A DNA stretch of 55,878 bases, from IMG/VR virus record IMGVR_UViG_2839610755_000009; one strand, given 5' to 3'. A program made the translations under genes and the position numbers. The stretch is from a virus (lineage: Duplodnaviria > Heunggongvirae > Uroviricota > Caudoviricetes). The notes under the pieces were generated by a model. It was not told the origin of the DNA, searched no databases, and saw nothing but the letters and a program-made list of their open reading frames with translations. Below, in pieces: positions 43,314 through 50,880 of this stretch. Position 1 is the stretch's first letter. Every line of letters begins with the position of its first letter.

Positions 43314-43730
43314 GTGTCTCAACCACTTTCGGAAATATTGACATGGGATGATGAACAATGGGAGGTATTTGTCCATGATTGGCTTATTGTCTGTAAATCA
43401 GATGATTACCCGTGGAGCGAACGTTTGGGAGGAGCTGGAGATAAAGGTAGAGACGTTGTTGGATATAAATCGGATCCTAACGTAGAAGGTTATTCTTGGG
43501 ATAATTATCAATGCAAACTGTACAAAAAAAGTTTAGGGTTCTCTGATGTTGTAGTTGAGTTTGGAAAACTTATCTATTTTACTCTGAATGGTGATTATCC
43601 CATCCCTCAGAAGTACTTTTTTGTGGCACCCTATGATTTATCTACTACATTTTCTAATTTATTGAAAAATAAAAACGAGCTTAAAAAAGCAGTCCTTGAT
43701 TCATGGGATTCAGCAATTTCAAAAAAATAA
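43314..43730 (+). CDS. cargo ORF A: PD-(D/E)xK-like nuclease domain (candidate effector N-terminus)
   Basis: 138 aa, GTG start 7 nt after AAGGAG; GGAGDKGRDVVGY ... YQCKLY resembles Mrr/NERD-type motif. Confidence 0.5.
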   Translation: MSQPLSEILTWDDEQWEVFVHDWLIVCKSDDYPWSERLGGAGDKGRDVVGYKSDPNVEGYSWDNYQCKLYKKSLGFSDVVVEFGKLIYFTLNGDYPIPQKYFFVAPYDLSTTFSNLLKNKNELKKAVLDSWDSAISKK

Positions 43731-44320
43731 CTAAAAAGATTGATATTCCATTAGATGATGAAATAAAAAAATATATTGAGGATTTTGATTTTAGTATTTT
43801 TTACTCTCTACCCTTATCATTGATTTTAAATGATATTGCAAATACACACCTTTATTTTAAGTACTTTAACGAGCTGTATGTCGTGAGAATCCCTCCAAAT
43901 GAAATTCCAACATACAATTCAAAAAAAGAGTCTGTATATGTTAATGCACGGCTTCAAGCCTATTCAGAGCATGGAAATAAAACTTATAGTTCTTTCTTAG
44001 AGCTTGATGATCCATACAGACGACACTTTAATAATAGTAGAAATGATTTTTATTTTGCATCTTCGCTTGAGGTTTTTGTCCGCGAAGTATTTAAAGATGA
44101 TGTATTCAAAGCATTGAAATGTTACATTTCATCTTCAATTGAACCCGTCTTTTATGAAGACCATAATTATGCATTTATTAGGTGTAATGCAGTCTTGAAG
44201 CAGGCTGTTCTGACACCAATTGCACATTCAGTACTATCAAAAATATGTGAAGCAAATGATAAAAAAGGAATATGCCATCATTTGGTTAATGATGGTGAAG
44301 TAATTTGGACGGTGAGATAA
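43703..44320 (+). CDS. cargo ORF B: probable C-terminal continuation of ORF A
   Basis: 205-aa ORF overlapping A by 28 nt, no SD; joins A by -1 shift at A7 tract. Confidence 0.45.
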   Translation: MGFSNFKKITKKIDIPLDDEIKKYIEDFDFSIFYSLPLSLILNDIANTHLYFKYFNELYVVRIPPNEIPTYNSKKESVYVNARLQAYSEHGNKTYSSFLELDDPYRRHFNNSRNDFYFASSLEVFVREVFKDDVFKALKCYISSSIEPVFYEDHNYAFIRCNAVLKQAVLTPIAHSVLSKICEANDKKGICHHLVNDGEVIWTVR

Positions 44321-44778
44321 TGGTTAGAATTTATAATTCAAGTTTAGAAGTGGCATGTCGAATGGCGAAAGTGCTCGTCGCTATTTATCCTTCTTCATTA
44401 AGCCTTGAACGGCTTATTTGTTTTGATTTTATTTTAGTAAATCTTAAGGATTTTTTACCTGAAGAGATTAGTCTTCATCCTCCAATACCCCGTAGAGATG
44501 CTCAGTTAGCCCTAAAACGAGAGATTGTTTTAGAATCATTGGCTTTGTTGCAAGGCTATGAACTAGCCTCAAAAATTTATACACATCGTGGTTTTGTATA
44601 TAAAGCTTCTGAAAAAACATATGCATTTACAAATTCTCTACATAATGAATATGTTGCGCAGATGGAGCATAATATAAATTTGGTGGTTAAGTTATATAGT
44701 GATATTCCTGATGAGCAGTTGCAATCAATTATAAAAAATAAAATTGGCAAATATGATATGGAATTTAATTATGAATGA
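44320..44778 (+). CDS. cargo ORF C: small helical protein (candidate middle component)
   Basis: 152 aa from ATG overlapping upstream stop (TAATG). Confidence 0.5.
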   Translation: MVRIYNSSLEVACRMAKVLVAIYPSSLSLERLICFDFILVNLKDFLPEEISLHPPIPRRDAQLALKREIVLESLALLQGYELASKIYTHRGFVYKASEKTYAFTNSLHNEYVAQMEHNINLVVKLYSDIPDEQLQSIIKNKIGKYDMEFNYE

Positions 44779-45403
44779 CAATTTTTTTACGTTCAGAAAA
44801 ATAAAGGTAACCGGATTCAATAAATTAGATGCTATAATTGAATTTGGTTCTAAATTGACTATTTTATATGGTGGTTCTGACTCTGGAAAAACATACATAT
44901 ATTATTTGATTCGATATTTATTAGGGAGTGAAAAACTAAAAAATAAAGATATCGATCATGCTCAAGGTTATGATTTAGCCTATCTGGAATTTAATTTTCA
45001 AGGTAGGGTAATGACAATTGAGAGGTCTCTTCAGGATAGCGCCCATTACAGATTATATGATTCGAGCATTGAAAATGTTAGTGAAGCTAATCTGTTGATG
45101 GTTTTTTCCAAAAGTGCTTCGTCTAAAAAGAGTTTTTCATCATACTTTTATGGTAGGTTGAATTTCAAAGAGGCTAAAGTAAGAACAAACTTAAGTAATA
45201 CTCTTCATAAATTTAATCTTAATAATGTTTTTGAATTTTTTTGTATTGATGAATTAAGAGTGTTAACTGAGAAGTCGTTAATTCTTTCTGATATTCCTAG
45301 CGAGGAGACAAAAAGAAAGTCTGAATTTAAATTCCTTTTAACTCAGAGAGATGATACTAACTCCTTAGCAGAAAAACCAAATAAAAAAGCAAGATATTTT
45401 TAA
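44771..45403 (+). CDS. cargo ORF D: ABC/SMC-like ATPase N-terminal head (Walker A)
   Basis: P-loop ILYGGSDSGKTYIY; ATGAATGA overlap with ORF C. Confidence 0.55.
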   Translation: MNDNFFTFRKIKVTGFNKLDAIIEFGSKLTILYGGSDSGKTYIYYLIRYLLGSEKLKNKDIDHAQGYDLAYLEFNFQGRVMTIERSLQDSAHYRLYDSSIENVSEANLLMVFSKSASSKKSFSSYFYGRLNFKEAKVRTNLSNTLHKFNLNNVFEFFCIDELRVLTEKSLILSDIPSEETKRKSEFKFLLTQRDDTNSLAEKPNKKARYF

Positions 45404-45433
45404 AAAAATCAAATTGCAAATATTTATGAGGAA

Positions 45434-46024
45434 TTGAAAGCGCAATTAATTTATCCTGAATATGATCAAGTCATTGTTTCAAGAGAACTTGAGAAAGTAG
45501 AGCAAGATATTGAATCATCGAAAGATATATTGAAAGGTATTGTTGATGCACTTGATGATAAGAAGCAATTATTAAAAGAGTTAAGTGATGAATTATATTC
45601 AATCAGTGACAGGGAAAAATACTTATCATTACTCATTGAAAGATTTAGTCTTCTTAAAGACCAATACTTTATAGATCTACAAAGAATAGATGTTGTATCA
45701 CAGGCGAATTTCTATTTAAATAATTTTGCAGATATTTATTGTGAGTTCTGTAATACACCGCAAAAAAAAGAAAATGAAATATCATATGATGATTGTTTTT
45801 TGTCGTGTAATGCAGAAAAATTGAAAATCAAAAGCCAGCTGAAAGGATTAATTGAATCAATCGGATCTAATGTTCGCGAACATGAATTAATTATGTTAAG
45901 AAAAAATGATGTTAATGAAATTTATCAATCAGAAAAAAGTGATTTTAAGACGTTAGAAGATAAAAATATAAAACAATACATTCATCTCTTGAATCACTTT
46001 ATGAATATAAAGACAATCTTTTAA
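45434..46024 (+). CDS. cargo ORF E: coiled-coil segment of ATPase (in frame with D after a single TAA)
   Basis: 196-aa heptad-rich ORF without ATG start; same frame as D; CEFC...CFLSC cysteine cluster. Confidence 0.45.
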   Translation: MKAQLIYPEYDQVIVSRELEKVEQDIESSKDILKGIVDALDDKKQLLKELSDELYSISDREKYLSLLIERFSLLKDQYFIDLQRIDVVSQANFYLNNFADIYCEFCNTPQKKENEISYDDCFLSCNAEKLKIKSQLKGLIESIGSNVREHELIMLRKNDVNEIYQSEKSDFKTLEDKNIKQYIHLLNHFMNIKTIF

Positions 46025-46590
46025 TGGATCACACAAAACATAGCATTCTATCTTCATTACAAGATAAAGAAGATGATGTTGACGAACTTAAATACTCCGC
46101 CGAGGACTTTGACTCCTTAACAGTAGCTGATTTGTATGATATAGAAATAGCGATGCAAGACTTTTTGAATGATATAAATTTTGAAAATTCTAAAGATAAC
46201 AAAGTGCGATTTGACGAAGATACATATGACTTTAATATCAATGGGAAACGCCGAGGAATGTTTGGTAAAGGTACCCGTGCAGTAATGCATGCTATATTTA
46301 CCATTTGCTTTGCGGAATTTTTATCAAGAAAAGGGAATCCATTCATTGGATTTGTTGTGCTTGATAGTCCATTAGTGACGCACTTTGATAAAGATAGAGG
46401 GGGTTCTCTATCGGATGTTAATAGCGTCAGTCTCAGTGATTCATTTTATCACGCATTAATCAAAAGGGACTATAATTTCCAGATTGTAATTCTTGAGAAT
46501 AAAGGTCCGACGTTCCAAATAAAAATTAATGATGCAAATAAAATCCATAACTTAAATAAGAATGGAAGCTCTGGTTTTTATCCTGTTTAA
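46024..46590 (+). CDS. cargo ORF F: ABC/SMC-like ATPase C-terminal head (Walker B-like)
   Basis: 188 aa; FIGFVVLDSPL hydrophobic-strand-plus-acidic motif; TAATG junction with E. Confidence 0.5.
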   Translation: MDHTKHSILSSLQDKEDDVDELKYSAEDFDSLTVADLYDIEIAMQDFLNDINFENSKDNKVRFDEDTYDFNINGKRRGMFGKGTRAVMHAIFTICFAEFLSRKGNPFIGFVVLDSPLVTHFDKDRGGSLSDVNSVSLSDSFYHALIKRDYNFQIVILENKGPTFQIKINDANKIHNLNKNGSSGFYPV

Positions 46591-46999
46591 TACATTAAAA
46601 ATATAACTGCTAATTGGGGTGCTCGAAATTATATTTCGTTTCGAGCGCTCAGTTCATTTCTAAATAATTTGCAAAATTATTTTGGGTACTTTCGCCTCTA
46701 CACTTCCTTCGGGTGGTTCCACAATAATGGATCTCACCGGCGTTTGATATTTTATAATCTAACCCCTTAGCGCGCGCAGCCCCCCACGCCTGCTCGCTTC
46801 GCTTAACAGACTGGTTTTCATGCATTCCGCAAATCGTCTCAGAAGCCACCACACAAGGGCTTTCGCGTCAAAAATGGTGCATGAGAATCATGCGTTTTCA
46901 TGCGCTATAGACATGCACTCATGCGCTCTCAGGCCAGCCAGGGAAAAGGCGTAAAAAATCCCAGTACTGGACCGGGATTACGTGGGCTTTTTTTGCTAA

Positions 47000-47272
47000 T
47001 CAGACAGGAATTTGCTGACGGCTTGACAGCTTTGACGCGGAGCCATAGCGATTGAGAGTTTGCTGTTGTTTTTCCGGCATTTGTGCTTTCTCTGATTCCT
47101 GTTCATTGCGCCGGGGCTTCATGATTATCGTATCCACACTTTCCAGTGCGGTAAATGTGTAGGAACATTCAAGATTCTGGCACTGATACCATGAGCGTTT
47201 AACCGATGGTGCTTCATAGGCGGAGGTTCTGGCGTGTGCCGTCGTACCGCATTCGGGACATTTAAGTGCCAT
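47000..47272 (-). CDS. Ogr/Delta-type zinc-finger late-gene activator
   Basis: 90 aa; CPECGTTAHARTS...YQCQNLECSYTF matches Ogr/Delta zinc finger. Confidence 0.85.
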   Translation of the reverse strand: MALKCPECGTTAHARTSAYEAPSVKRSWYQCQNLECSYTFTALESVDTIIMKPRRNEQESEKAQMPEKQQQTLNRYGSASKLSSRQQIPV

Positions 47273-47277
47273 TAATA

Positions 47278-47829
47278 TTACTCCTGCATGCCGTTAATGT
47301 AATCCAGACGTTGCTGAAAGCGCAGTTGTTGTGCAGGGGTGTAAGAGCTCTGGCAATCACGAACCATCATGGGGTCAGGCATCACACCGGATTCATCCAG
47401 AATCATACGATAATCCCCGGCAATTTCAGGCGGTGTTATTGCCAGCTGGCGAACCAGAGCATTGCGTAATATACGGGACGCAACGTCAACCCCTCCGCGC
47501 CCCTTCAGGAACGGAGCCAGTGCAGATGTCAGGGCTGCTCCATTCGCCTGCATAAAATTGCTGAGAGCGTCTTCTGTGCAGGCCTCCATCAGTTGATGCT
47601 GCGAGTAAATGCATTCGCGCGCAGCACAGTTAATTTGCCATTTCAGCACATCCAGATGTTCCCGCTGTAATTCGAGCTGTCGAGCATAATCTGCTGGTTT
47701 TTCCATGGCAGTGAGGAGTGATTCTATCTGTTGTTCAACGGCTTTTCGGCTCTCACTATGTCCAGCCCACAGAATACGGGCATTTCTAAAACTGATAAGC
47801 GCTTGGTCTGGAGTGACTCGGGCCATCAT
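47278..47829 (-). CDS. Psu-like (polarity suppression) protein
   Basis: 183 aa, P4 psu position and size. Confidence 0.65.
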   Translation of the reverse strand: MMARVTPDQALISFRNARILWAGHSESRKAVEQQIESLLTAMEKPADYARQLELQREHLDVLKWQINCAARECIYSQHQLMEACTEDALSNFMQANGAALTSALAPFLKGRGGVDVASRILRNALVRQLAITPPEIAGDYRMILDESGVMPDPMMVRDCQSSYTPAQQLRFQQRLDYINGMQE

Positions 47830-48578
47830 ACTGCTTTCTCCTTCTCAGCACGTTCCTGACGAACCTTCATTTTATGCATAGCTGCTGGAGAGAGTTTATT
47901 ACTGAAATCCAGACGGGCCGCATAATCCGGGGCAACTCCCGCCAGTTTAAACACGGGGTCCTGTTCGGGCATCGCATCGTTAGTCAGAGCCGGTCTGGTG
48001 ATATGTTTATGAATAAAATCTTTCAGCAGTGTGTCCGGGTCATTAACTGAATGCACCACACCGACAACTGCGCTGGCTTCCCTGCCCATTGTTGATTTGA
48101 GCAGGCTTAGTGTCTGGATTAGTGCTTTTCCATGCGACTGCATAAAATCTTCCCAGATTTGTTTTGCGCGAATACCCACAAGGGTGTCGTGCGCGTGGAT
48201 ATACTTTCCGGCTAATTCCGCAGCCTCCTGCGGCAAAAGTGCATTTTCGCTTTCCTGAGCCGCCAGCAGCTCATCAAAATCCTCAAGCGTTTCTCGTCCC
48301 AGCGCAATTTCCGTGCGCAGTTTTTTCATTTCCTTTGAGACTACGCCCTGACTTTCACGAAATAGCGTGCGCCACTCCTCATTCAGGGCGTTCGTCGTGG
48401 CTTCCATTTCAGCGCGGCGCTGGCGGATTGTCGCAATATTATCCGCTGCCGCTTTTTGCTGACGACGTGCTTCAAGCCATGCAGATTTGGTGGCATTCAC
48501 TTTCTCAAGCGCCTGTTGCGTCGAAACAGGGATAGAAATTTCAACGATCGGGTTATTGTTCTGTTCTGGGATTGTCAT
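47826..48578 (-). CDS. Sid-like capsid size determination protein
   Basis: 250-aa helical protein upstream of psu in the same operon. Confidence 0.55.
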   Translation of the reverse strand: MTIPEQNNNPIVEISIPVSTQQALEKVNATKSAWLEARRQQKAAADNIATIRQRRAEMEATTNALNEEWRTLFRESQGVVSKEMKKLRTEIALGRETLEDFDELLAAQESENALLPQEAAELAGKYIHAHDTLVGIRAKQIWEDFMQSHGKALIQTLSLLKSTMGREASAVVGVVHSVNDPDTLLKDFIHKHITRPALTNDAMPEQDPVFKLAGVAPDYAARLDFSNKLSPAAMHKMKVRQERAEKEKAV

Positions 48579-49511
48579 GTCAGCACCTAGTGGTTTGTCG
48601 TGGTGTCAATTGTGCTGTGATGCATACAAAGCTGCCATTGAACGCCATTGTGCGAGCGACAAGACAAAGACTGAACCGCCCCGGACCTCTTTTGGCTAGC
48701 CAGAAAAGGCCTCGTTTAACTAAGGCTGTTTCAGACTTACCTTAACTATTCACTACTATTCACTTAGGTAAAAAAAATAGGTAATACAGAAGGTTATAAG
48801 GTGAAGGGTTGGCATGGCAGTATTCATCGACTGTTCATAACTGTTCACATGGGAATAAAATTATTTATGGTATTTTTTCATAATGGGTGGTTTTTTTATT
48901 CCTCGTAGCTATTTGTTTTTTGCTCCTCACCACTATTCACCCTTATTCAGGAGTATTCAACAGGCACATAAATAGACTGCATGTTTTTGCCGGGGAATAA
49001 CATTTTCGCCTCTGGCCATGGTGTTGCATTTCATACTGATTTTTATAAAACTAGATCTGTCCGGTTCTTTATGGATTCATTCGGATATATTTTACGATTT
49101 AAGGTGATGTTATTTAATATCAAGGTTTTTATGCAGGCCCAATGTTTATAAGTTGGATGCGATTCAAAAATATGCCCGGAAATTGGGGCCTGCAATGCAA
49201 GGCCTCGTGTAGAAGTTGTACTGCCTTGCTGTATTGGCGGTGGGGTTAGCACTATCAGGTGCAATGACCCATAGGATAGTAAACCCTGGGTGAATGGTAG
49301 TTCCTATTAATGCTCCTGTATTTATAGTCCGCAGGCATGGTATTTATTATGTCATTTTATATGGTTTAATCGGGCTTTAAATTCCATAAAATCAATATGT
49401 GACGCTAAATAAAAAATGCGTGCGCAGGTGGTTTATATACACATAATAAGGAACTACCTGAACCCGGATAAATTCATCCGGACTGTTGTGGAAATTAAAG
49501 AGGGTAGATAA

Positions 49512-49772
49512 ATGCGTAATATTTCTGTGTCTGCGCCAGCTCCTGCTGCGCCATTATTTCCTGTATCGAACCATCATGAGCGATTTTTACGCCTGCCTGA
49601 GGTGATGCACTTATGCGGGTTGTCCCGTTCGACCGTTTACGACCTGATCAGCCGCGATGCGTTTCCGAAGCAGATCCCGCTTGGCGGTAAAAATGTCGCC
49701 TGGGCACAGTCTGAGGTCAGCGCATGGATGGCGGACCGCATCAGCGCCCGTGGGCGGGGATGTGATGCATGA
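49512..49772 (+). CDS. alpA: AlpA-family transcriptional regulator
   Basis: 86 aa; [50 protein letters not shown]. Confidence 0.8.
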
Positions 49773-49900
49773 TGATACCTGCATACATTAAATACCTTTA
49801 TTCTGGCTTGCTTACTGTCGTCATTTCCAGGTATAGTTTTTCCGCTGTCGCAAAATCGGCAGCCGGAATTGGCGTTCCGTATAACTTATTGGCGACAATT

Positions 49901-49922
49901 GACGCCCCTTGCGTCTTTTTTT
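49901..49922 (+). terminator. rho-independent terminator after alpA
   Basis: GACGC-CCCTT-GCGTC hairpin followed by T7. Confidence 0.65.
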
Positions 49923-49949
49923 ACGTCGTAGCTCAGGCACAACCATTTT

Positions 49950-50110
49950 CAGGGCTGTGGTGTTTATGCTTACACCATGGTTCTATCGAGATAATGGTAG
50001 TCCGGGCGGGGCAGCCTTCGGGCTGGCCGGTTTCCAATAAGGCCGGTTACGCCAACCCCGTTCGGGCTGCCACCAGTGAAATTGGCGTTTCCGGTGGTAG
50101 CAATAACCGC
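49950..50110 (+). ncRNA. candidate structured RNA (P4 CI/C4-like immunity RNA region)
   Basis: ORF-poor stretch with consecutive hairpins (GCAGCCTTCGGGCTGGC, CCGGTTTCCAATAAGGCCGG, GCTGCCACCAG...CCGGTGGTAGC). Confidence 0.3.
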
Positions 50111-50131
50111 TACTTATTGGAGGCTGCCATC

Positions 50132-50326
50132 ATGGCTACAATCCTCACCCCGTCACACCCGCAATATGTCTTTGTGTTTGCCGCAATCCGCCGTGCTGAC
50201 ACTCACCCCCGCATCTGTATGCTTCGCACTGTCTCCTGCGATGAGCGTTCCGCGCGCCGTTTGCTAGTCCGAGATTATGTACTCTCCCTTTCTGCACGGC
50301 TGCCTGCCGGGGAGGTGACGCTATGA
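50132..50326 (+). CDS. small hypothetical protein
   Basis: 64 aa from MATILTPSH with GGAGG SD. Confidence 0.5.
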
Positions 50327-50544
50327 ACCAGTTTGAGATTTCCTACGACGATGTTGTAAGGCTGAAACATTTACGCAATGTGGGTGAGTATGTAACTGGC
50401 ATGGCAGCCCTGCAGGACTGTTATGAAAAGCCAGCAGGTGCCCAATGCGAACAACTGGTTTCCCTCATTTATCTGATGACAGAGCAACTGGATGGAGTGG
50501 TGCAACGCTGCCATGACGACCTGATGAATGCGGAGGTGGCCTGA
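50323..50544 (+). CDS. hypothetical protein
   Basis: 73 aa, ATGA coupling. Confidence 0.45.
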
Positions 50545-50867
50545 TGATATGCTGTGAATCTCTTCTGGCACTTCGTGCCGCTCTGTATCGCCGTGCCGTT
50601 GCCTGTGCCTGGCTGGCTCTAAGCAATCATCAGGAACGTTATTCCGGCCTGACGCTCGCTGAACTTGAAGATGCCATAGCCCGCGAGCTGGAAGGGTTCT
50701 ATCTGCGCCAGCATGGGCAGCAAAGAGGGCTGGAAATTGCCTGCGCGTTGCTTTCGGATCTGATGGAGTCGGGGCCGCTTAAAGCCTGTCCGGTTCTCTC
50801 ACTGCTCGGAATGACGGTCATGGATGAACTTTGTTCCCGTCACCTCAACAAACCAGCGCTGCACTAA
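50544..50867 (+). CDS. hypothetical protein
   Basis: 107 aa, ATGA coupling, precedes primase. Confidence 0.45.
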
Positions 50868-50880
50868 GGAGGGCCGCACA

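What the first reader, a model, noticed from the sequence alone, without database searches (positions are those of the whole stretch)
43314..46590. AT-rich six-ORF cassette in the int-psu hotspot of the P4-like satellite: candidate nuclease + middle component + SMC-like ABC ATPase defence system
Six co-directional ORFs with abutting or overlapping junctions sit between the satellite integrase and the Ogr/Psu/Sid block, in DNA visibly more AT-rich than the flanking genes. ORF A carries a PD-(D/E)xK-like signature (GGAGDKGRDVVGY ... YQCKLY). ORF D opens with a P-loop (GGSDSGKT). ORF E is heptad-rich with a CEFC...CFLSC cysteine cluster, a possible zinc hook. ORF F has a Walker-B-like FIGFVVLDSPL. 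D+E+F together (about 600 aa) give the head / coiled-coil / head layout of SMC/Rad50-like ABC ATPases. The order effector, small protein, ATPase matches Lamassu/ABC-3C-type systems, and the location matches the reported P4 defence hotspot. I cannot tell from sequence alone whether this is a divergent member of a described family or something new.
Basis: partly seen in the sequence, partly recalled or inferred. Interest (0 to 1): 0.9.

Follow-up and report, generated by a model that had tools for sequence, protein, structure and literature searches.

The report
Decayed Lamassu defence operon in satellite
The six small ORFs are the broken pieces of an ordinary three-gene Lamassu anti-phage system (nuclease LmuA, adaptor LmuC, Rad50-like LmuB) carried by the P4-like satellite Sp2 of E. 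coli O157:H7; it is a known system and a known locus, and two one-base deletions plus a stop codon have almost certainly inactivated it.

Summary
Six co-directional ORFs at 43314-46590, with GC 0.27-0.36 against 0.44-0.53 in the flanks, lie between the satellite integrase and ogr/psu/sid. PADLOC and Pfam place A+B in LmuA (Mrr-type PD-(D/E)xK nuclease plus ABC-3C CTD6), C in LmuC (MC2), and D+E+F in LmuB (SMC/Rad50-like ATPase with a CxxC zinc hook).

It is not new, and it is not intact. Intact LmuA(335)/LmuC(152)/LmuB(606) operons in Proteus, Pantoea and Citrobacter differ in reading frame from the window by three lesions:
- a 1-bp deletion in an A-run that splits LmuA;
- TTA>TAA at 45402, making LmuB L211 a stop;
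- a 1-bp deletion in the A-run 45962-45966, which is the true E/F junction.

Both deletions are present in essentially all ~309 complete E. coli records that carry the cassette, all O157:H7 or O55:H7 among those seen. The stop codon is in 295 of them. Different lineages carry further private lesions. Recent substitutions are 8 non-synonymous to 1 synonymous, whereas older divergence has dN/dS of about 0.1. The Sakai RefSeq record already marks the ATPase as a pseudogene. The Domainator paper (NAR 2024) described this locus as 'Lamassu-var' without noting the fragmentation.

Verdict: a known system that has decayed. Interest is low.

The parts
42129..43310 (+). Tyrosine integrase of the P4-like satellite (Sakai prophage Sp2, intS). 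It forms the left border of the hotspot. Its 3' end carries the AAGGAG Shine-Dalgarno sequence (43301-43306) of LmuA.
   Evidence: RefSeq annotations; sequence.
43314..43730 (+). LmuA N-terminal fragment (138 aa). It is an Mrr-type PD-(D/E)xK nuclease domain with D43, D47, Q66-x-K68, E82 and K85. It ends at a premature TAA created by the frameshift.
   Evidence: PADLOC LmuA PDLC03852 9e-41, profile positions 10-140 of 336. Invariant residues. Mrr_cat in 9 of 54 homologues. Fold hits to LmuA, MspJI, Cap4 and FokI.
43719..43727 (+). Lesion 1: a 1-bp deletion (TTTC + A7 where A8 is inferred) that puts the rest of LmuA in the -1 frame. In the ORF A frame the sequence A AAA AAA TAA is also a -1 slippery heptamer followed by a stop.
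   Evidence: DNA alignments with intact Proteus and Pantoea genes. Identical in 309 of 309 E. coli records.
43727..44320 (+). LmuA C-terminal fragment: linker plus the ABC-3C CTD6 domain, which in other Lamassu systems docks to LmuB/LmuC and mediates tetramerisation. The listed ORF B begins at ATG 43703. Homology to LmuA begins at 43727.
   Evidence: PADLOC LmuA 1e-42, profile positions 141-333 of 336. Pfam CTD6 3.3e-28.
44320..44778 (+). LmuC (152 aa, ABC-3C middle component 2). This is the only gene of the three that is still intact.
   Evidence: PADLOC LmuC PDLC03871 2.5e-36. Pfam MC2 6e-30. Same length as the Proteus and Pantoea LmuC.
44771..45400 (+). LmuB fragment 1 (residues 1-210): N-terminal half of the ABC head with Walker A GGSDSGKT (44870-44893, K40).
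   Evidence: PADLOC LmuB PDLC03863 8.4e-50, profile positions 3-199 of 610. Pfam AAA_23 and SMC_N.
45401..45403 (+). Lesion 2: in-frame nonsense codon TAA at LmuB residue 211. O55:H7 and Proteus have TTA, and Leu is invariant in eight homologues.
   Evidence: Present in 295 of 309 E. coli records.
45404..45963 (+). LmuB fragment 2: ascending coiled coil, zinc-hook CxxC (CEFC, 45740-45751) and part of the descending coiled coil. The listed ORF E starts at TTG 45434.
   Evidence: PADLOC LmuB 1.6e-21, profile positions 231-412. C324/C327 invariant. AF2 helices 233-318 and 339-439 with the loop between them.
45962..45966 (+). Lesion 3: a 1-bp deletion in an A-run (A5 here, A6 in Proteus). This is the true E/F frameshift.
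   Evidence: Identical in 306 of 309 E. coli records. Shared by O55:H7 and O157:H7.
45964..46590 (+). LmuB fragment 3 (F frame; the listed ORF starts at ATG 46024): rest of the descending coiled coil and the C-terminal half of the head, with the signature-like GKGTR motif and Walker B FVVLDS (46351-46368).
   Evidence: PADLOC LmuB 5.1e-37, profile positions 428-608. Invariant G499, K500, G501, R503, D532, S533 and P534. The Walker B form hhhhD[Q/S/T/E] is that of short Lamassu.
46617..46650 (+). Terminator-like hairpin (13 pairs) directly after the LmuB stop codon.
47000..48578 (-). Right border of the hotspot: ogr/delta-like (47000-47272), psu (47278-47829) and sid-like (47826-48578) genes of the satellite.

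Best explanation
The cassette is the relic of a canonical three-gene 'short' (type II) Lamassu / ABC-3C anti-phage operon, lmuA-lmuC-lmuB. It is carried as cargo in the int-psu hotspot of the P4-like satellite Sp2 (CP-933I) of E. coli O157:H7.

How intact relatives work (from published structures, not tested here). Two LmuB protomers, which are Rad50/SMC-like and dimerise through a zinc hook, together with one LmuC hold a monomeric LmuA in an inactive state through its C-terminal domain. The LmuB/LmuC module senses DNA ends or phage replication intermediates. ATP binding and head engagement then release LmuA. LmuA tetramerises through its C-terminal domain so that two nuclease domains form one active site, and it degrades DNA indiscriminately, aborting the infection. 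In this family the effector is an Mrr-type PD-(D/E)xK nuclease.

State of the copy in the window. LmuA is cut after residue 138, so the nuclease domain is separated from the linker and CTD6. LmuB is cut at residue 211 by a stop codon and again near residue 399 by a frameshift. No polypeptide therefore carries both Walker A and Walker B, or a head joined to a hook. The two frameshifts predate the O55:H7/O157:H7 split, and the stop codon arose later on the O157:H7 branch.

Shown here: identity, lesions, their fixation and the relaxed-selection signal. Inferred: loss of function, and the mechanism of the ancestral system.
For: Identity:
- The PADLOC LmuA, LmuC and LmuB profiles are tiled end to end by the fragments. 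Pfam finds CTD6 and MC2 of ABC-3C.
- The AF2 model of an intact LmuB homologue best matches solved type II Lamassu LmuB (9uxh_F 1.2e-15, 9hqu, 9hqx, 9nyg), then Rad50/SMC.
- The LmuA model matches solved LmuA (9nxx, 9hqx, 9uxh) and PD-(D/E)xK nucleases.

Lesions:
- The Proteus mirabilis operon is intact (LmuA 335, LmuC 152, LmuB 606 aa) and 89% identical in DNA. Against it the window has only two 1-bp gaps and the TAA.
- The repaired proteins are 335 and 606 aa long and 92% and 88% identical to the Proteus proteins.
- Pantoea alhagi and Citrobacter braakii carry intact versions in the same int-ogr/psu hotspot of P4-like satellites.

Fixation and decay:
- Lesion 1 is identical in 309 of 309 records, lesion 3 in 306 of 309, and the TAA in 295 of 309 complete E. 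coli records.
- Further private lesions: O55:H7 has an A deleted at 45933. CB9615 has a T inserted at 45235 and CAA>TAA at 45410. OkiPb01686 has a T deleted at 44782. Strain 3-5-1 has an A deleted at 45762. Three strains carry IS1203 insertions, and two strains carry partial or near-total deletions.
- dN/dS is 0.07-0.12 against intact relatives. The O157-versus-O55 differences are 8 non-synonymous (one of them nonsense) to 1 synonymous. That ratio has P = 3e-4 under omega 0.1 and P = 0.44 under neutrality.
- The Sakai RefSeq record annotates ECs_0293 as a pseudogene, 'AAA family ATPase'.
- No intact E. coli LmuB or LmuA appeared in the 5.8-billion-protein search.

Mechanism of intact systems: PMC12663957 and bioRxiv 10.1101/2025.03.14.643221.
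Against: - The Domainator paper (PMC11754643) cloned the equally fragmented O55:H7 TB182A version and reported smaller T2, T4, T6 and RB69 plaques. Some residual activity of the fragments therefore cannot be excluded.
- LmuC is still intact.
- The LmuA break lies exactly on a -1 slippery heptamer followed by a stop codon, so a little full-length LmuA could be made.
- N- and C-terminal halves of Rad50 heads can assemble in trans (my own knowledge, not checked here).
- The cassette has been retained in about 300 genomes rather than deleted.
- No expression or phenotype data were available to me.
Confidence: 0.85

Rival explanations
1. A functional split-gene 'Lamassu variant'. The five or six polypeptides (free Mrr nuclease domain, free CTD6, LmuC, and two or three LmuB pieces) assemble non-covalently and still give some phage defence, as the Domainator authors implied.
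For: Small-plaque phenotype on T-even phages for the cloned O55:H7 version. The TAATG stop-start overlap at 46022-46026 could allow translational coupling of F to E. The cassette is retained in about 309 genomes.
Against: - No relative outside the O55/O157 clone has the split layout. Proteus, Pantoea, Citrobacter and more than 25 other homologues are single 594-612 aa LmuB proteins, and LmuA homologues are 324-381 aa.
- The breakpoints are a nonsense codon and homopolymer deletions, and different strains carry different additional breaks. That is not expected of a selected architecture.
- Recent substitutions are 8 non-synonymous to 1 synonymous.
- ORF E has only a TTG start with GAGGAA abutting it at zero spacing.
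- About 20 residues of coiled coil upstream of ATG 46024 would be lost.
- The published clone spans exactly from the ogr ATG to the LmuA GTG. It therefore lacks the native promoter and Shine-Dalgarno sequence. The phenotype was plaque size only, at the highest dilutions.
Confidence: 0.08
2. A phase-variable or recoding-controlled locus. The homopolymer tracts switch the system on and off, or programmed -1 frameshifting sets a low level of LmuA and LmuB.
For: Two of the three lesions lie in A-runs. A AAA AAA TAA at 43721-43730 is a plausible -1 slippery site, and its product would be exactly the ancestral ...SKKITKK... junction.
Against: - There is no length variation at the LmuA tract in 309 of 309 genomes, and almost none at the LmuB tract (306 of 309).
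- Intact homologues encode both junctions in a single frame without long runs: Proteus has TCCAATAAAATA and Pantoea has TCAAAGAAAATA.
- Slippage cannot bypass the TAA at 45401.
- The A5 site at 45962 has no X XXY YYZ heptamer.
Confidence: 0.03
3. The fragmentation is a sequencing or assembly artefact at homopolymers, and the real genes are intact.
For: Two breaks lie in A-runs, which are typical error sites.
Against: The same bases are found in about 300 independently sequenced complete genomes, including EDL933 and Sakai. One lesion is a substitution. O55:H7 retains TTA at that codon.
Confidence: 0.01

Closest known systems
'Lamassu-var', cluster 1 of P4-like hotspot contents in E. coli (Domainator paper, NAR 2024, PMC11754643)
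   Same: It is the same locus. That cluster comprises 259 E. coli genomes, 3-9 CDSs between a Psu-domain gene and an integrase, and PADLOC type II Lamassu homology. The cloned representative, CP038295 4116517-4120474, is O55:H7 TB182A. Its cassette is identical to RM12579 and 99.7% identical to the window.
   Different: The paper treats it as a functional variant and does not mention frameshifts, pseudogenes or splitting. Here it is shown to be a canonical three-gene operon broken by point lesions. The O157:H7 copy in the window carries an additional stop codon that the cloned O55 copy lacks.
Short / type II Lamassu LmuACB (Vibrio cholerae DdmABC; Salmonella enterica LmuACB; PDB 9hqu, 9hqx, 9uxh, 9nyg, 9nxx)
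   Same: Three components. LmuB is about 600 aa with Walker A, a short coiled coil, a zinc hook and the divergent Walker B hhhhD[Q/S/T/E], here VVLDS. There is a small LmuC. LmuA consists of an N-terminal effector plus a C-terminal docking and oligomerisation domain. Intact homologues find these structures as their best fold matches.
   Different: Sequence identity in the structural alignments to the solved LmuB and LmuA chains is only 7-15%. The effector is Mrr-type rather than Cap4. The gene order here is A-C-B. The copy in the window is not intact.
ABC-three-component (ABC-3C) systems: Pfam MC2 (PF20288) and CTD6 (PF20282)
   Same: ORF C matches MC2 and ORF B matches CTD6, both above the gathering thresholds. 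RefSeq already names them in this way.
   Different: None in kind. ABC-3C is the earlier computational name for the same class.
Rad50/SbcC-Mre11/SbcD DNA-end repair machinery
   Same: ABC head, antiparallel coiled coil and CxxC zinc hook. Rad50 structures rank directly below LmuB in the fold search. A published proposal derives Lamassu from SbcCD.
   Different: Much shorter coiled coil, no Mre11-type phosphoesterase partner, and an immune rather than a repair role.

Membership tests
Lamassu (short / type II, LmuA-LmuC-LmuB) | LmuB: SMC/Rad50-like ABC ATPase of about 600 aa with Walker A, coiled coil, zinc hook and Walker B hhhhD[Q/S/T/E] | tested here: met
   This holds at the level of homology. 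D, E and F tile PADLOC LmuB PDLC03863 positions 3-608 of 610. The motifs GGSDSGKT, CEFC and VVLDS are present. The intact homologue P0001 folds like solved LmuB.
Lamassu (short / type II, LmuA-LmuC-LmuB) | LmuC small middle component | tested here: met
   PADLOC LmuC 2.5e-36. Pfam MC2 6e-30. Intact at 152 aa.
Lamassu (short / type II, LmuA-LmuC-LmuB) | LmuA: N-terminal effector domain plus C-terminal domain that docks to LmuB/LmuC | tested here: met
   This holds at the level of homology. A and B tile PADLOC LmuA PDLC03852 positions 10-333 of 336. CTD6 is found. The Mrr-type catalytic residues are invariant. The fold matches solved LmuA.
Lamassu (short / type II, LmuA-LmuC-LmuB) | Each component encoded as one uninterrupted gene | tested here: not met
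   LmuA is split by a 1-bp deletion. LmuB is split by TAA at codon 211 and by a 1-bp deletion near codon 399. Sakai ECs_0293 is annotated as a pseudogene.
Lamassu (short / type II, LmuA-LmuC-LmuB) | Protection against phage or plasmid that depends on LmuB ATP binding and the LmuA active site | not testable with these tools
   The only relevant report is a plaque-size effect of the fragmented O55:H7 copy on T-even phages.
Cargo of the P4-like satellite defence hotspot | Variable genes located between the satellite integrase and psu, within an element carrying sid/psu/delta, alpA and the alpha primase-helicase | tested here: met
   The order is int, cassette, ogr, psu, sid, HTH regulator, Icd-like gene, primase-helicase. 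Pantoea and Citrobacter have the same layout with intact Lamassu operons. Psu here is reported to be only about 31% identical to P4 Psu.
Mrr-like PD-(D/E)xK restriction endonuclease fold (Pfam PF04471) | Catalytic D ... (Q/E)xK motif on an alpha/beta core | tested here: met
   D47 and Q66-C67-K68 are invariant in 54 homologues. Mrr_cat hits 9 of 54 homologues, best 1.6e-6, but Pfam itself does not hit ORF A. The fold search returns MspJI, Cap4, FokI and EndoMS.

The most novel reading that the evidence does not exclude
The fragmented cassette is not dead. A small amount of full-length LmuA would be made by -1 ribosomal slippage on A AAA AAA TAA, and the LmuB pieces would assemble in trans with LmuC. 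This would give a weak defence that is insensitive to anti-Lamassu factors, or a decoy function. It would explain both the T-even small-plaque report and the retention of the cassette in about 300 O157:H7/O55:H7 genomes.
Probability: 0.07. Interest if true: 0.5.

Novelty: already known. Interest (0 to 1): 0.2.

Why it matters
As a discovery it matters little. The family (Lamassu / ABC-3C) has dedicated PADLOC profiles and solved structures of more distant Lamassu systems, the genes are named in RefSeq, and the locus has been published.

There are two modest points of value:
1. The system reported as the most frequent content of P4-like hotspots in E. coli ('Lamassu-var', 259 genomes) is a clonal, frameshift-broken copy of a normal three-gene Lamassu. 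Its abundance reflects how heavily O157:H7 has been sequenced, not success as a defence. Its reported weak activity deserves re-testing against a repaired control.
2. It is a clear counter-example to the recent claim that defence pseudogenes are rare in P4-like satellites. It shows a defence operon decaying in place over the O55:H7 to O157:H7 timescale instead of being swapped out.

Tried and rejected
- Direct sequence searches of repaired LmuA and of intact LmuB against PDB sequences found nothing useful. An eight-sequence LmuB profile gave only marginal SMC/Rad50 N-terminal hits with E of 0.04-0.1. Fold searches on AF2 models were needed.
- NCBIfam has no model for any fragment or for the intact homologues.
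- My first repair of the E/F junction, adding a T in the T4 run at 46019-46022, was wrong. The protein alignment showed the F frame already matching homologues 20 codons upstream, and the DNA alignment placed the deletion in the A-run 45962-45966.
- An 80-bp probe over the TAA site returned no match because of low-complexity masking. A shifted 90-bp probe worked.
- SNP density in the cassette against the flanks (10 in 3277 bp against 2 in 2736 bp) is not significant (P = 0.077). I do not rely on it.
- Promoter-like sites in the cassette are no more frequent than in shuffled sequence.
- The Lamassu variant tested without effect in bioRxiv 10.64898/2026.02.27.708500 is labelled LmuBC + SMEK. By its effector label it is a different system (sequences not compared), and I do not use it as evidence here.
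- A literature search for Lamassu + O157 + pseudogene found nothing specific.


Full report
**What is there.** The window is E. coli O157:H7 chromosome. Bases 43200-46700 are 100% identical to strains F1273 and TX 376-2, and at least 99% identical to 310 complete E. coli records. All records listed are O157:H7, O157 or O55:H7. Their DNA has GC 0.27-0.36, against 0.44-0.53 in the integrase on the left and the ogr/psu/sid block on the right. In the Sakai reference the element is annotated as 'prophage Sp2, P4-like phage', which corresponds to window 41950-54836. The ORFs are ECs_0290 to ECs_0293. In EDL933 they are RS01510 to RS01535, already named 'ABC-three component system protein', 'ABC-three component system middle component 2' and 'AAA family ATPase'.

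**Identity.**
- PADLOC profiles assign A and B to one LmuA model (PDLC03852). A covers profile positions 10-140 and B covers 141-333 of 336.
- C matches LmuC (PDLC03871).
- D, E and F match one LmuB model (PDLC03863), covering positions 3-199, 231-412 and 428-608 of 610. E-values range from 1e-21 to 8e-50.
- Pfam independently finds the ABC-3C domains CTD6 in B and MC2 in C, and AAA_23/SMC_N in D.

The cassette is therefore three genes, lmuA-lmuC-lmuB, cut into six ORFs. This is a Lamassu system, the same class that was first described computationally as ABC-3C.

**The lesions.**
- Searching with a repaired LmuB found full-length homologues of 594-612 aa. The closest are Proteus mirabilis (606 aa, 86% identical to my first repair and 88% to the corrected one) and Pantoea alhagi (606 aa, 74-76%).
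- The Proteus locus encodes LmuA 335 aa, LmuC 152 aa and LmuB 606 aa. Over the whole 3.28 kb it is 89% identical in DNA to the window. The alignment contains only two gaps in the window, at 43719-43727 and 45961-45966, plus the substitution at 45402.
- Lesion 1 removes one base from TTTC+A8. The junction then reads ...SAISKK|ITKK..., which matches Pantoea's SAISKKISKK.
- Lesion 2 is TTA>TAA at LmuB codon 211. Leu is invariant there in eight homologues, and O55:H7 and Proteus still have TTA. D and E are therefore in the same frame and are not frameshifted relative to each other.
- Lesion 3 removes one A from an A6 run at 45962-45966. The F frame is open from 45964 and reads KYKTIHSSLESLYEYKDNLLMDH, against KYKKIHLLLESLYEYKDNLLMDY in Proteus. 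The apparent E/F junction at 46022-46026 is therefore 60 bp downstream of the real break.
- With the three changes reverted, the proteins are 335, 152 and 606 aa, exactly the lengths of the intact relatives.

**Not an artefact, and fixed.**
- 80-90 bp probes centred on each lesion show that lesion 1 is identical in 309 of 309 records.
- Lesion 3 is identical in 306 of 309 records.
- The TAA is present in 295 of 309 records. The 14 exceptions include O55:H7.
- The two frameshifts are shared by O55:H7 and O157:H7, so they predate their split. The nonsense codon is specific to O157:H7.

**Signs of continuing neutral decay.**
- O55:H7 RM12579 and TB182A carry another A-run deletion at 45933.
- O55:H7 CB9615 adds a T insertion at 45235 and a second nonsense codon (CAA>TAA at 45410).
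- OkiPb01686 lacks a T at 44782, and strain 3-5-1 lacks an A at 45762.
- Three strains have IS1203 inside the cassette. One strain lacks the first 376 bp and one retains only 10% of the cassette. Some of the strain-private homopolymer changes could be assembly errors.
- The window itself has a private Leu>Arg change at a Leu that is conserved in O55:H7, Proteus and Pantoea (43950).
- Against the intact Proteus and Pantoea genes, the repaired window genes have dN/dS of 0.07-0.12. Their history was therefore one of strong purifying selection.
- By contrast, the nine substitutions separating the window from O55:H7 are eight non-synonymous (one of them nonsense) and one synonymous. That ratio has probability 3e-4 under omega = 0.1 and 0.44 under neutrality.
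- No intact E. coli LmuA or LmuB was found among 5.8 billion clustered proteins. E. coli entries are fragments, for example P0040, with 197 aa and 692 member sequences.

**Structure and motifs.**
- *LmuA.* An AF2 model of the intact LmuA homologue P0038 (67% identical, pLDDT 94.6) has an N-terminal alpha/beta domain ending at helix 120-138 and a helical C-terminal part. The frameshift therefore falls at the domain boundary. Its best PDB matches are solved LmuA chains (9nxx, 9ny1, 9hqx, 9uxh), followed by MspJI, Cap4 and FokI nuclease domains. Across 54 homologues G42, D43, G45, D47, Q66, C67, K68, E82 and K85 are invariant, and nine homologues hit Pfam Mrr_cat. The effector is an Mrr-type PD-(D/E)xK nuclease, one of the effector classes listed for short Lamassu.
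- *LmuB.* The AF2 model of P0001 (pLDDT 85.9) has a split ABC head, two long antiparallel helices (233-318 and 339-439) and an apical loop carrying the invariant C324-x-x-C327. Its best PDB matches are LmuB chains of type II Lamassu (9uxh_F 1.2e-15; 9hqu, 9hqx, 9nyg, 9ux7), then Rad50, SMC, Smc5/6, JetC and MukB.
- Walker A is GGSDSGKT, with K40 at the same position as the K40A mutant reported to impair defence for the V. cholerae system. Walker B VVLDS fits the published short-Lamassu form hhhhD[Q/S/T/E].
- A zinc hook in LmuB is described in the Salmonella structure paper and is required for defence there.

**How it works, or worked.** The mechanism comes from the published structures and was not tested here. 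A LmuA1-LmuB2-LmuC1 complex sequesters monomeric LmuA through its C-terminal domain near the zinc hook. LmuB/LmuC bind dsDNA ends or phage replication origins. ATP-dependent head engagement releases LmuA, which tetramerises through its C-terminal domain. Two nuclease domains then form one active site and degrade DNA, aborting the infection.

In the window the nuclease domain (ORF A) is detached from the domain needed for both docking and tetramerisation. LmuB ends at residue 210, before the coiled coil. The remaining pieces lack credible independent translation starts: ORF E has only a TTG with GAGGAA abutting it, and ORF F's ATG has no Shine-Dalgarno sequence and lies 20 codons inside the homologous region. 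I therefore infer that the system is non-functional as a Lamassu. I put about 0.98 on the identity and about 0.85 on loss of function.

**Context in relatives.** The family is genuine cargo of this hotspot. In Pantoea alhagi the order is proA, int, LmuA, LmuC, LmuB, ogr, psu, psu-like (sid position), alpA, then the primase-helicase. LmuA there is an intact 335-aa ORF with a GTG start that the gene caller shortened to 201 aa. This is the same proA-side chromosomal neighbourhood as in O157:H7, where proA is followed by thrW. Citrobacter braakii has int, LmuA(334), LmuC(157), LmuB(609), psu, ogr, alpA, then the primase-helicase. In Proteus the operon lies in an island next to smpB that carries an integrase and a DUF927 protein.

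**Literature.** The Domainator paper extracted int-psu regions from 2718 E. coli genomes. Its largest cluster (259 genomes, 3-9 CDSs, Psu about 31% identical to P4 Psu) was 'related to Lamassu systems' and was named Lamassu-var. The authors synthesised CP038295 4116517-4120474 and saw smaller plaques for T2, T4, T6 and RB69 at the highest dilutions.

That record is O55:H7 TB182A. The interval runs from the first base of ogr to the first base of the LmuA GTG, and its cassette is identical to RM12579. The tested construct therefore carried the LmuA frameshift and two LmuB frameshifts, and it lacked the native upstream region. The paper does not mention frameshifts, pseudogenes or splitting. The range of '3 to 9 CDSs' is what variable gene calling on a decaying operon would produce.

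A 2026 preprint argues that defence pseudogenes are rare in P4-like satellites. This locus is a counter-example, fixed in a whole pathogenic lineage.

**Rivals.**
- *Functional split system.* This is disfavoured because the split layout is absent outside one clone, the breakpoints are mutational in nature, strains differ from one another in further breaks, and selection looks relaxed.
- *Phase variation or programmed recoding.* This is disfavoured because the tract lengths are invariant across about 309 genomes and slippage cannot bypass the TAA codon. The LmuA break does sit on a -1 slippery heptamer followed by a stop codon (A AAA AAA TAA), which could yield traces of full-length LmuA.
- *Sequencing error.* This is excluded by the number of independent genomes.

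**Verdict.** The finding is nevertheless ordinary. It is a known family, a known and already published locus, and a pseudogenised copy. Interest is 0.2. Its main residual value is as a correction to how 'Lamassu-var' is interpreted.

Noticed in passing
window 1369-41950: tRNA-Thr (thrW, 1369-1444) is followed by a ~40 kb prophage. It has an integrase at 1459-2577, iss at 15764-16057, IS1203 at 16429-17642, and terminase, portal and capsid genes. This is much larger than the remnant at the same site in EDL933 (about 10.5 kb) or F1273 (about 24.5 kb). The window is identical to F1273 only from 32565 onward. 67 complete genomes cover at least 80% of window 1-25000, which includes the left part of this longer prophage.
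   Followed up: partly
window 43721-43730: The LmuA break reads TC A AAA AAA TAA in the ORF A frame, which is a -1 slippery heptamer directly followed by a stop codon. A -1 slip would restore exactly the ancestral ...SKKITKK... junction. This is probably coincidental, since intact homologues have no long A-run here, but it could produce traces of full-length LmuA.
   Followed up: partly
window 43950: A private G (codon CGG, Arg) where other O157:H7 strains, O55:H7, Proteus and Pantoea have Leu (CTG/TTG) in the LmuA motif VYVNALLQAYSEHG. Among the records listed, only F1273 and TX 376-2 scored as fully identical to the window, which suggests they share this G.
   Followed up: yes
window 40423-41642: An AT-rich stretch (GC about 0.33) lies between the thrW prophage and the satellite. 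It holds an AraC-family regulator gene (40423-41166, +) and a truncated IS integrase-core pseudogene (41208-41642, -). This is junk or cargo at the junction of two tandemly inserted elements.
   Followed up: no
window 38210-39598: A pinE invertase gene (38210-38764) lies next to inverted tail-fibre and tail-fibre-assembly genes. It is followed by a gene for a LEM-3-like GIY-YIG domain protein (38825-39598, -), a possible nuclease cargo at the prophage end.
   Followed up: no
L011 8543-9550 (Pantoea alhagi CP019706.1): The intact LmuA there starts with GTG and was called as a 201-aa protein, so automated annotation makes that system look as if it lacks an effector. The same GTG start is used in the window and in Proteus. 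This may contribute to reports of Lamassu systems 'missing a known effector'.
   Followed up: partly
E. coli genome collection: One of the 312 matching places is on a record labelled as a plasmid, and one genome has two places. I did not inspect these. They could reflect misassembly or mobilisation of the satellite.
   Followed up: no
window 46617-46650: A 13-pair terminator-like hairpin lies directly after the LmuB stop codon. It is followed by about 350 bp of non-coding DNA before the convergent ogr gene.
   Followed up: no
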